DNA from: an uncultured Gammaproteobacteria bacterium | Lineage (GTDB): Bacteria > Patescibacteriota > Patescibacteriia > Magasanikbacterales > UBA922 | Direction of reading: 5' to 3' | DNA: 64,000 nucleotides | Assembly (NCBI GenBank): GCA_964435035.1 | Contig: CAYSXR010000001.1 | Location: 144,192-208,191, forward strand | In this document: positions 61,106-61,729 of the stretch, one piece after another | Layout: every line of letters begins with the position of its first letter | How positions within the stretch are numbered: position 1 is the stretch's first letter | Position numbers and translations under genes: made by a program | The notes under the pieces: generated by a model | The model's database searches: none | Seen by the model: only the letters and a program-made list of their open reading frames with translations | What the model was told of the DNA's origin: nothing

Positions 61106-61245
61106 TGTCATCCCGAGGGAGGAGTGCATCCGACGATTCGAGGGATCTTTCCTGCATAAGGCTGATTAGGAAAAATGTATTTAAAGCTTAGTAAGGACTT
61201 GGTAGGAAAGATTCCTCGACTCGGGTGCACTCGCTCGGAATGACA
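61106..61245. repeat. Palindromic GTCATYCCGAG...CTCGGAATGAC element, copy 2 (140 bp), immediately upstream of a GIY-YIG gene
   Basis: tgtcatcccgagggaggagtgcatccgacgattcgagggatctttcctgcataag ... aggaaagattcctcgactcgggtgcactcgctcggaatgaca. Confidence 0.6.
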
Positions 61246-61287
61246 CATTAAGTAATTGTATTGGGTGGTAAAAAGTAAGGGGGTAGT

Positions 61288-61566
61288 ATGAAAACATACT
61301 ATGTGTATATTATGTCGAGCATTAATCAAACACTCTATGTCGGTATAACCAATAATTTATTCCGTAGAGTTTTTGAACATAGGATGAAACTCAATGAAGG
61401 TTTTACAGAAAAATATCAGATATATAAATTAGTATATGCTGAATACTATACAAATGTGCAGGAGGCAATACGTCGTGAAAAACAAATCAAAAAGTGGCGT
61501 CGAGAGAAGAAAATCAAATTGATTGAAAAAGATAATCCCGATTGGGTGGATCTCGCAAGGAATTAA
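61288..61566 (+). CDS. GIY-YIG nuclease-domain protein (YhbQ/UPF0213-like, 92 aa), flanked on both sides by copies of the same palindromic element
   Basis: YYVYIMSS...LYVGITNNLFRRVFEH motif set. AAGGGGG RBS. Confidence 0.75.
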   Translation: MKTYYVYIMSSINQTLYVGITNNLFRRVFEHRMKLNEGFTEKYQIYKLVYAEYYTNVQEAIRREKQIKKWRREKKIKLIEKDNPDWVDLARN

Positions 61567-61582
61567 TGGTGTGATTGGTATT

Positions 61583-61729
61583 GTCATTCCGAGCGACCGA
61601 GTCTTCGAGGGAGTCGAGGAATCTTTCCTGTATAGTATTCTGTAAAAAAATGTAACTATAGTTTGGTAAATACTTTGCAGGAAAGATTTCTCGACTCGGG
61701 TGCACTCACTCGAAATGACAGTGAATAGC
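61583..61729. repeat. Palindromic GTCATTCCGAGCGA...CTCGAAATGAC element, copy 3 (147 bp), immediately downstream of the GIY-YIG gene
   Basis: gtcattccgagcgaccgagtcttcgagggagtcgaggaatctttcctgtatag ... aggaaagatttctcgactcgggtgcactcactcgaaatgac. Confidence 0.6.

What the first reader, a model, noticed from the sequence alone, without database searches (positions are those of the whole stretch)
61106..61729. GIY-YIG nuclease gene precisely bracketed by two copies of the palindromic element: a candidate mobile cassette
The 92-aa YhbQ-like GIY-YIG gene (61288-61566) has copy 2 ending 42 bp upstream of its start and copy 3 beginning 16 bp downstream of its stop. A half AT-rich hairpin element follows. 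A second GIY-YIG paralog elsewhere in the window (38375-38647) is attached to the tmRNA locus, itself a frequent integration hotspot. A small nuclease flanked by inverted-repeat elements is the architecture expected for a selfish or homing-type module. The elements may be its cleavage or homing sites, or the composite may be a MITE-mobilised passenger.
Basis: inference. Interest (0 to 1): 0.65.

Follow-up and report, generated by a model that had tools for sequence, protein, structure and literature searches.

The report
Ssn nuclease gene with hairpin repeats
The small GIY-YIG gene and the palindromes around it are a new example, in a candidate-phylum (Magasanikbacteria) genome, of the Ssn system published in 2025, in which a tiny nuclease cuts single-stranded DNA next to its own hairpin repeats; close relatives lack the whole unit, so it arrived here by insertion.

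Summary
A 92-aa GIY-YIG ORF (61288-61566) lies between two ~140-nt palindromes (61106-61245, 61582-61720). A third, inverted copy is at 55253-55356.

This is a known system: the Ssn family of single-domain GIY-YIG ssDNA endonucleases and their hairpin repeats (NTS/SRM; Chenal et al. 2025, PMC11893778).
- The protein is 47% identical (BLASTP 8e-28) to the Neisseria gonorrhoeae ssnA product and keeps Y7/Y17/E64.
- Each palindrome arm is one oriented hairpin, TGTC-[AT-YYY-GA-S…S'-GA-RRR-AT]-CT. It carries the published determinants: GTC 5' of the hairpin and C 3' of it.
- In 80 homologous loci from many phyla this half-site is about 50 times denser within 250 bp of the gene. Stem triplets covary in 240 of 252 sites.
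- The half-sites do not match the published SRM search pattern.

Four related Magasanikbacteria genomes have the same flanking genes but no nuclease gene and no repeats there. Copy 1 is a clean 113-nt insertion relative to a relative. The mobile-cassette idea therefore has support, but the mechanism is unshown. The tmRNA-linked paralog is unrelated to this system.

Verdict: new member of a known kind, of moderate interest.

The parts
61288..61566 (+). ssn-like gene: a 92-aa single-domain GIY-YIG nuclease. A Shine-Dalgarno-like AAGGGGG lies upstream.
   Evidence: ORF. Pfam PF01541 covers residues 4-76. It is 47% identical to the N. gonorrhoeae ssnA product (BLASTP 8e-28; tblastn 4e-18 in 7.3 Gb). 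Y7, Y17 and E64 align with the Y6/Y17/E64 residues essential in Nm SsnA.
61106..61245 (+). Composite palindrome copy 2. Two inverted hairpin half-sites flank a ~50-nt AT-rich spacer, in a '><' arrangement like a dRS3-RS-dRS3 unit.
61106..61147 (+). Half-site, divergent B type: TGTC-ATCCC-GA-G…C-GA-GGGAT-C.
61210..61245 (-). Half-site, A type: TGTCATTCCGAGCGAGTGCACCCGAGTCGAGGAATC. It is 38/38 identical to a half-site in the unrelated metagenome contig L093.
61582..61720 (+). Composite palindrome copy 3, in the same polarity as copy 2 (B-type left arm, A-type right arm).
61582..61623 (+). Half-site, B type: TGTCATTCCGAGCGACCGAGTCTTCGAGGGAGTCGAGGAATC. It lies 15 nt after the ssn stop codon.
61685..61720 (-). 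Half-site, A type: TGTCATTTCGAGTGAGTGCACCCGAGTCGAGAAATC.
55253..55356 (-). Composite palindrome copy 1. It has no gene, is inverted relative to copies 2 and 3 (A-type arm 55253-55288, B-type arm 55315-55355) and has a 13-nt spacer. Together with the 9 nt at 55357-55365 it is a 113-nt insertion relative to L085 and L082.
61106..61732 (+). Extent of the DNA that is absent from the four related genomes (copy 2, ssn, copy 3, plus 11-12 nt). Homology to the relatives' intergenic region stops at ~61105. It resumes at ~61733, in the 3' remnant of a 23S_rRNA_IVP gene.

Best explanation
**What it is.** The 92-aa gene encodes a member of the Ssn family. These are single-domain GIY-YIG endonucleases that bind a short oriented hairpin repeat (NTS/SRM) in single-stranded DNA and cut that strand a few nucleotides 5' of it.

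**What the palindromes are.** Each arm of the three long palindromes is one such hairpin site, a variant with tandem G·A/A·G and a nested insert. A palindrome is therefore two sites facing each other across an AT-rich spacer, like a neisserial dRS3-RS-dRS3 (NIME) unit.

**How it got here.** The repeat-gene-repeat block entered this Magasanikbacteria genome by insertion into an intergenic site that once held a 23S-rRNA-IVP gene. Copy 1 is a separate insertion without a gene.

**Shown here:** homology, conserved catalytic residues, site architecture, covariation, cross-phylum linkage and insertion polymorphism.

**Inferred from the characterised Neisseria and Wolbachia enzymes:** ssDNA-specific cleavage at these sites.

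**Not shown:** the cellular role. It could be restriction or modulation of incoming ssDNA (competence genes are, to my knowledge, widespread in CPR bacteria; not checked here), or spread of the repeats. How the unit moves is also not shown.
For: **The published system** (PMC11893778).
- Ssn proteins are ~94 aa and fall in CDD family cd10448.
- They cut ssDNA a few nucleotides 5' of the repeat. Nm SsnA, the member tested on all four substrates, acts on ssDNA only, not on dsDNA, RNA or the reverse strand.
- The 3 nt 5' of the palindrome govern cutting, and the C just 3' of it governs binding.
- 71% of homolog genes have a repeat in their flanks.

**The protein.**
- 47% identity to N. gonorrhoeae ssnA (BLASTP 8e-28). 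That gene is itself flanked by NTS copies that match the published pattern.
- Y7, Y17 and E64 are conserved.

**The sites.**
- Hairpins AT-YYY-GA-S…S'-GA-RRR-AT were searched with no requirement on their flanks, and 208 were found.
- 98% have G, T and C at positions -3 to -1, and 98% have C at +1. The sequence is random beyond that.
- The YYY/RRR triplets are fully Watson-Crick in 240 of 252 sites (shuffled mean 52, maximum 74), with 7 triplet types.
- The S/S' pair is Watson-Crick in 232 of 252 sites.

**Linkage to the gene.**
- Half-site density is 4.6-4.9 per kb within 250 bp of the gene, against 0.09 per kb beyond 1 kb.
- 69 of 80 loci have a half-site within 500 bp.
- Among the 68 loci with full flanks, 51 have sites on both sides.

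**Insertion.** The relatives L082, L083/84, L085 and L086 share the GHL15 and DUF11 neighbours but have no ssn and no half-sites there. Copy 1 is a 113-nt insertion.
Against: - The published SRM degenerate pattern does not match any window half-site. It hits near the gene in only 2 of 80 loci. The sites are therefore a divergent class, and their cleavage by this protein is untested.
- I could not run CDD to confirm cd10448. NCBIfam gave no hit.
- Isolated half-sites fold weakly with nearest-neighbour DNA parameters (-1.8 to -4.3 kcal/mol, no better than shuffles). The long palindromes fold at -28 to -35 kcal/mol. On ssDNA the long hairpin could therefore mask the local sites.
- The relatives used as 'empty sites' are different species (59-85% aa identity in the neighbouring protein), not strains.
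- The right junction of the gene cassette coincides with a deletion of the IVP gene, so that event is not base-precise.
Confidence: 0.85

Rival explanations
1. The unit is an autonomous IS-like element. Ssn acts as its transposase on ssDNA, with hairpin ends as in IS200/IS605. The gene-less '><' palindromes are its non-autonomous derivatives. This extends the best explanation rather than excluding it.
For: - In 35 of 68 loci the nearest sites are '>' upstream and '<' downstream, so the gene sits inside terminal inverted hairpins.
- Conservation stops sharply 5' of TGTC.
- The gene unit and copy 1 are discrete insertions.
- A half-site 38/38 identical to the window's occurs in an otherwise unrelated contig.
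- The closest protein relatives (60-70% identity) come from many phyla.
- The authors of PMC11893778 raise the same analogy.
Against: - No transposition activity is known for any Ssn or any GIY-YIG enzyme in prokaryotes (my knowledge).
- In Acidobacteriaceae the gene is syntenic across five species.
- No near-identical gene copies occur in different contexts among the 80 loci.
- There is no target-site duplication, and the junction offsets are asymmetric (0-1 nt on the left, 9-11 nt on the right). They do not match the published cut position.
- The window arrangement is '><[G]><', not '>[G]<'.
- There is no homolog in 50,697 phage records, and the plasmid hits are mostly on large replicons.
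Confidence: 0.25
2. The cassette moved passively. The hairpin repeats serve as recombination substrates for incoming DNA, as in the NIME hypothesis, so a repeat-flanked gene was swapped in by recombination. The nuclease only modulates that process.
For: - This was proposed for dRS3/NIME arrays (PMC1797815).
- SsnA affects the integration of transforming DNA.
- The same intergenic site holds different small genes or remnants in relatives: the IVP gene in L086, its remnant in L085 and in the window.
Against: - The relatives' sites contain no half-sites that could have served as recombination anchors.
- Copy 1 inserted into a repeat-free T-rich spacer.
Confidence: 0.2
3. The unit is a classical free-standing GIY-YIG homing endonuclease cassette. 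The protein cuts the empty dsDNA allele and is copied in by repair.
For: - GIY-YIG homing enzymes exist (I-TevI, Seg proteins; my knowledge).
- Presence/absence polymorphism is seen here.
Against: - The protein is 92 aa and has no DNA-binding domain.
- Its characterised homologs do not bind or cut dsDNA.
- The conserved sites flank the gene itself in 69 of 80 loci, instead of being destroyed by insertion.
- The empty sites in relatives carry no recognisable target.
Confidence: 0.04
4. The palindromes are RNA-level elements (terminators, stabilisers or an sRNA), and their position next to the nuclease gene is incidental.
For: - The composites form very stable hairpins in intergenic positions.
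- Copy 1 follows a terminator.
Against: - Rfam has no match at the gathering threshold, and only chance-level miRNA hits appear at relaxed thresholds.
- No T-tract follows the composites, and the only terminator-like hit in the region is at chance level (1 found, against a mean of 0.5 in shuffles).
- Stem mismatches show no G·U-type bias (T·G 7, C·A 10).
- Both orientations occur.
- The ~50-fold cross-phylum linkage to one protein family is not incidental.
- Nm SsnA does not bind RNA.
Confidence: 0.03

Closest known systems
Ssn nucleases with NTS/SRM repeats (Chenal et al. 2025, Nat Commun 16:2388, PMC11893778)
   Same: - Both are single-domain GIY-YIG proteins of about 92-94 aa.
- The window protein is 47% identical to the gonococcal ssnA product, with the same essential Tyr/Tyr/Glu.
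- The gene is flanked on both sides by oriented hairpin repeats with GTC 5' and C 3' of an ATTCC…GGAAT-type stem.
- The repeats are also dispersed away from the gene.
- The '><[gene]>…' layout matches that of the gonococcal locus.
   Different: - The half-sites do not fit the published SRM search pattern. The stem is interrupted by tandem GA/AG and carries a 12-20-nt nested insert, so sites are 36-42 nt instead of ~28.
- The host is a CPR bacterium (Magasanikbacteria).
- Activity and biological role are untested here.
Neisserial intergenic mosaic elements (dRS3-RS-dRS3; PMC1797815)
   Same: - GC-rich inverted hairpin repeats flank an AT-rich spacer.
- Units are about 104-140 nt here and about 108 nt in the gonococcal locus.
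- They are intergenic, and in other genomes they form arrays (L092, L049).
   Different: - The dRS3 consensus ATTCCCN8GGGAAT is not met.
- Only three units occur in 64 kb, with no long arrays in this window.
REP sequences with RAYT transposases (REPtrons) and IS200/IS605
   Same: - The nuclease gene is flanked by inverted copies of a hairpin repeat.
- That repeat has a conserved short 5' motif and is dispersed in the genome.
- The enzyme acts on ssDNA hairpins.
   Different: The enzyme is a GIY-YIG nuclease, not a HUH Y1 transposase. No strand-transfer chemistry is known for it.
Free-standing GIY-YIG homing endonucleases (I-TevI, Seg proteins)
   Same: They share the GIY-YIG catalytic fold and are small selfish-looking genes with a patchy distribution.
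   Different: - There is no DNA-binding domain.
- No dsDNA activity is seen in characterised Ssn enzymes.
- The recognition sites persist around the gene.
UPF0213 / YhbQ-type GIY-YIG proteins (e.g. BH0048, PDB 1ZG2)
   Same: They have the same fold and size. This is the best match among solved structures (E=2e-5).
   Different: - The relationship is distant.
- The Ssn-type C-terminal REKQIKxWRREKK…NPxW motif is absent.
- No repeat association is known (my knowledge).

Membership tests
Ssn nuclease family (PMC11893778) | Single-domain GIY-YIG protein of about 94 aa | tested here: met
   The protein is 92 aa. Pfam PF01541 covers residues 4-76 and no other domain is found.
Ssn nuclease family (PMC11893778) | Sequence homology to Neisseria SsnA at E<1e-10 | tested here: met
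   tblastn gives 4e-18 against the N. gonorrhoeae ssnA locus in a 7.3-Gb database. BLASTP gives 8e-28 at 47% identity. Its flanks carry canonical NTS copies.
Ssn nuclease family (PMC11893778) | Catalytic residues equivalent to Y6, Y17 and E64 of Nm SsnA | tested here: met
   Y7, Y17 and E64 are present. They are invariant in an alignment of 30 homologs and align with the gonococcal protein.
Ssn nuclease family (PMC11893778) | Assignment to CDD cd10448 / the Ssn clade in a GIY-YIG phylogeny | not testable with these tools
   No CDD search is available. NCBIfam gave no hit.
Ssn nuclease family (PMC11893778) | Gene flanked by SRM repeats as defined by the published pattern HGTCWYN(0-2)YYVSBRHN(0-5)WNVSBRGN(0-2)RNCYNB | tested here: not met
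   There are 0 hits in the window and near-gene hits in only 2 of 80 homolog loci. As a positive control, the pattern finds 8 NTS copies in the gonococcal locus.
Ssn nuclease family (PMC11893778) | Gene flanked by oriented 20-50-nt hairpin repeats with conserved GTC 5' of the stem and C 3' of it (the experimentally important positions) | tested here: met
   Window half-sites are 36-42 nt. Across 208 hairpins, G, T and C at -3 to -1 and C at +1 are each about 98% conserved. Stem covariation holds in 240 of 252 sites. Enrichment next to the gene is about 50-fold.
Ssn nuclease family (PMC11893778) | Site-specific cleavage of ssDNA only (not dsDNA, RNA or the reverse strand) | not testable with these tools
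   This needs a biochemical assay.
NIME (dRS3-RS-dRS3) | Inverted dRS3 repeats ATTCCCN8GGGAAT flanking a 50-150-bp RS element | tested here: not met
   The architecture is analogous, with inverted hairpin sites around a 13-50-nt AT-rich spacer. The dRS3 consensus itself is absent: the stem reads ATTCC-GA….
REP/RAYT (REPtron) | HUH Y1 transposase-like gene flanked by inverted REPs | tested here: not met
   The flanked gene is GIY-YIG. Only the layout is shared.
MITE / TIR transposon | Terminal inverted repeats plus a target-site duplication at insertion junctions | tested here: not met
   Inverted ends are present. The base-level empty-site comparison for copy 1 shows no duplication and a 9-nt extra tail on one side.
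GIY-YIG homing endonuclease | Nuclease domain joined to a DNA-binding domain, with a target present in the empty allele | tested here: not met
   There is no second domain. The relatives' empty sites carry no half-site or other recognisable target.

The most novel reading that the evidence does not exclude
Ssn genes with their hairpin ends may be a genuine, previously unrecognised class of prokaryotic mobile element. In this reading a 92-aa GIY-YIG ssDNA nuclease is the only element-encoded protein, and the gene-less '><' hairpin pairs are its non-autonomous derivatives.

The insertions seen in this CPR lineage would then be the first empty-site evidence for their mobility. These are the 627-bp gene unit and the 113-nt copy 1, compared with repeat-free orthologous sites.

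The GA-interrupted half-site class found here in 69 of 80 loci would also mean that the published SRM pattern misses most of the family.
Probability: 0.2. Interest if true: 0.8.

Novelty: new member of a known kind. Interest (0 to 1): 0.35.

Why it matters
- **Gene naming.** This 'GIY-YIG nuclease family protein' in a Magasanikbacteria genome can be given a specific, experimentally grounded name, and its intergenic palindromes can be annotated as its cognate sites. The same probably applies to the homologs in the many phyla sampled here.
- **Reach of the published search pattern.** The published SRM search pattern hit near the gene in only 2 of the 80 closest homolog loci sampled here, so it misses a large, cross-phylum class of sites (GA-interrupted stems with nested inserts).
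- **Evidence on mobility.** The window adds empty-site comparisons that bear on the open question raised by the discoverers: whether repeat-ssn-repeat units are, or once were, mobile elements.
- **Possible use as tools.** New Ssn/site pairs with longer, different recognition hairpins are candidate ssDNA-cutting reagents.

Tried and rejected
**RNA-level readings.**
- Rfam at gathering threshold on the whole window found only the tmRNA and two tRNAs.
- Rfam at relaxed threshold on 60900-61900 gave only chance-level miRNA and snoRNA hits.
- Stem mismatches show no wobble bias.

**Literature.** Searches for GIY-YIG with palindromic/intergenic, REP/RAYT, YhbQ, COG2827 and MITE returned nothing relevant. 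The Ssn paper surfaced only with GIY-YIG + transposase + hairpin. No follow-up papers were found.

**Published SRM pattern.** It fails on the window even with the loop relaxed to 30 nt.

**Protein and structure databases.**
- NCBIfam gave no hit.
- PADLOC gave no hit for the ssn-like protein.
- The PDB holds no Ssn structure, only the distant UPF0213 entry 1ZG2.
- The paper's supplementary files are not held.

**Mobile-element carriers.** The phage collection has no homolog. Plasmid hits are mostly on megaplasmids, chromids or mislabelled chromosomes.

**Signs of recent transposition.**
- No near-identical gene copies in different contexts were found among the 80 loci. Instead, a syntenic Acidobacteriaceae group emerged.
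- The exact-protein look-up found only the same organism.

**Target-site duplication.** None is seen at the copy 1 junctions.

**Folding of isolated half-sites.** As ssDNA they fold no better than shuffles. The local hairpin therefore rests on covariation, not on predicted energy.

**The tmRNA-adjacent paralog.** I considered it as part of the system and rejected it.

Full report
**1. Observation**

ORF 61288-61566 (+) encodes 92 aa with a GIY-YIG domain (Pfam PF01541, E=4e-14, residues 4-76).
- Upstream lies a ~140-nt palindrome at 61106-61245, extending to 61100-61251. Downstream lies a second at 61582-61720, in the same polarity.
- A third copy, inverted and with a 13-nt instead of a ~50-nt loop, is at 55253-55356.
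- The 20-nt core occurs six times at 3 or fewer mismatches, against none in 100 shuffles.
- The composites fold far better than shuffles, at z = -7.6 to -11.3 as RNA and -5.3 to -9.1 as DNA.
- Rfam has no family for them.

**2. Cross-phylum association**

- The exact protein occurs only in this organism. Its nearest relatives are 60-70% identical and come from many phyla.
- I fetched 80 homologous loci (52-62% identity). They come from Acidobacteriota, Planctomycetota, Patescibacteria, Chloroflexota, Proteobacteria, Clostridia, Spirochaetota and others.
- Hairpins with the same terminus, TGTCATYYYGR, lie next to the gene in most of them.
- Half-site density is 4.6-4.9 per kb within 250 bp on either side of the gene, against 0.09 per kb beyond 1 kb.
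- 69 of 80 loci have a half-site within 500 bp.
- Of the 68 loci with full flanks, 51 have sites on both sides. In 35 the nearest sites are '>' upstream and '<' downstream, so the gene sits inside inverted ends.

**3. Anatomy of the site**

- Each half-site is a small hairpin: TGTC-[AT-YYY-GA-S … S'-GA-RRR-AT]-CT. It carries a variable, often GC-rich, nested insert.
- The YYY/RRR triplets are fully Watson-Crick in 240 of 252 sites (shuffled mean 52, maximum 74), spread over seven triplet types. The S/S' pair is Watson-Crick in 232 of 252 sites.
- Mismatches show no wobble bias (T·G 7, C·A 10), which fits DNA rather than RNA.
- When the hairpin is searched with no requirement on its flanks, G, T and C at -3 to -1 and C at +1 are each about 98% conserved. 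The sequence is random beyond that.
- The window's long palindromes are therefore pairs of two different half-sites facing each other. The A type is 36 nt and the B type is 42 nt.

**4. It is a known system**

- A literature search found Chenal et al. 2025 (PMC11893778). Ssn proteins are ~94-aa single-domain GIY-YIG enzymes in CDD family cd10448.
- They bind the hairpin repeat NTS/SRM and cut a few nucleotides 5' of it. Nm SsnA was shown to do this on ssDNA only, not on dsDNA, RNA or the reverse strand.
- The three nucleotides 5' of the palindrome control cutting, and the C just 3' of it controls binding.
- Y6A, Y17A and E64A mutations abolish activity.
- 71% of homolog genes have a flanking SRM, and 42% have one on both sides.
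- In N. meningitidis, SsnA lowers the integration of NTS-bearing transforming DNA.
- The authors note the IS-like and REP/RAYT-like layout and propose domestication.

**5. Membership**

- The window protein hits the N. gonorrhoeae ssnA locus at tblastn 4e-18.
- It is 47% identical to its product (BLASTP 8e-28), with Y7, Y17 and E64 aligned.
- That gonococcal locus is flanked by canonical NTS copies, arranged as '><' pairs of about 108 nt plus a '>' directly after the stop codon. This is the same layout as in the window.
- The published SRM search pattern does not match the window sites, even with a relaxed loop.
- It hits near the gene in only 2 of 80 loci, although it finds 8 NTS copies in the gonococcal control.
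- The window sites are thus a divergent class. They have a GA-interrupted stem and a nested insert, but they keep the experimentally important flanks.
- I could not test the CDD assignment or the enzyme activity.

**6. Is it an insertion?**

- The organism is a Candidatus Magasanikbacteria. Four related genomes share the GHL15/FG-GAP and DUF11 neighbours.
  - L082 (85% aa identity in the DUF11 protein): 19-bp intergenic region.
  - L083/84 (79%): 7 bp.
  - L085 (66%): 132 bp, holding the 3' remnant of a 23S_rRNA_IVP gene.
  - L086 (59%): the intact 122-aa IVP gene.
- The window has 780 bp between these genes. Homology to the relatives stops at ~61105 and resumes at ~61733, within the same IVP remnant.
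- None of the relatives has ssn or any half-site in its 9-16 kb.
- Copy 1 is a clean 113-nt insertion into a T-rich spacer after a conserved terminator, relative to L085 and L082. It has no target-site duplication and carries a 9-nt extra tail on one side.
- A half-site 38/38 identical to the window's A type occurs in a '><' unit in an otherwise unrelated metagenome contig.
- Against frequent movement: five Acidobacteriaceae species carry the gene (82-88% nt identity) in conserved flanks. No phage carries a homolog. Plasmid hits are mostly on large replicons.

**7. Other points**

- The tmRNA-adjacent paralog (38375-38647) is only distantly related to SsnA (E=6e-7). It has no half-sites and sits in a smpB-ssrA-giy-infC-rpmI-rplT context. 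It is not part of this system.
- The AT-rich sequence at ~61800-61850 is conserved in relatives that lack the cassette.
- Isolated half-sites fold weakly with nearest-neighbour DNA parameters, while the long palindromes fold strongly. Whether the local, Ssn-competent hairpins form within the composites is an open caveat.

**8. Verdict**

- The system was already described in 2025. This is a new member in a CPR host with a variant site class. The mechanism of mobility remains unshown.

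Noticed in passing
window 46500-55200: This block is 60-65% GC in a ~40% GC genome. Its last gene (52954-55041) encodes a Cys/Asp-rich protein with thrombospondin type 3 and Dictyostelium-type repeats. The 3' end of the block and the terminator after it are conserved in relatives L082 and L085, so it is not an assembly chimera. Copy 1 of the palindrome sits exactly at its right edge.
   Followed up: partly
window 61733-61800; L086 6580-6948; L085 6885-6945: This is the 3' remnant of a 23S_rRNA_IVP (PF05635) four-helix-bundle gene. 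The gene is intact in L086, reduced to a remnant in L085 and in the window, and gone in L082 and L083. The same intergenic site has therefore held different small accessory genes.
   Followed up: partly
window 61812-61850; also 42078-42149 and 51676-51720: An AT-rich motif (gttttgaactttgagttttaagttttgag) lies upstream of the DUF11 gene and is conserved in L085 and L086. Similar AT-rich hairpins occur elsewhere in the window. It may be a promoter-region or separate repeat family.
   Followed up: no
L091 (N. gonorrhoeae NZ_CP119142.1) 1496-1773: This 2.17-Mb record is listed as a plasmid in PLSDB but is clearly a chromosome. Its ssnA 5' end looks frameshifted: the ATG at 1496 is out of frame with the VYILAS… reading frame. 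The gonococcal copy in this strain may therefore be a pseudogene or use another start.
   Followed up: no
L092 (Planktothrix agardhii plasmid p1) 1180-2110: An ssn homolog (63% identical to the window protein) lies between an MmeI-type restriction-modification gene and DISARM drmA. It is flanked on both sides by arrays of GA-variant half-sites. The defence-island context hints at a role against incoming DNA.
   Followed up: no
L093 2748-2841: A '><' composite sits in a metagenome contig otherwise unrelated to the window. Its left half-site is 38/38 identical to the window's copy 2 right arm, while its right half-site differs. No ssn gene lies within the 10.8 kb held.
   Followed up: partly
L006 (Moraniibacteria) 2544-2739: A CPR genome carries near-canonical NTS-type hairpins (GTCATTCCCGCGAAGGCGGG…) about 2.3 kb from its ssn homolog. 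GA-variant sites lie next to the gene. Two site classes therefore coexist in one genome.
   Followed up: no
window 38375-38647: A second GIY-YIG gene of a different subfamily (weak T5orf172 match) is embedded between the tmRNA gene and infC-rpmI-rplT. The same arrangement occurs in three other contigs of the same organism. Its function is unknown and it has no associated repeats.
   Followed up: partly
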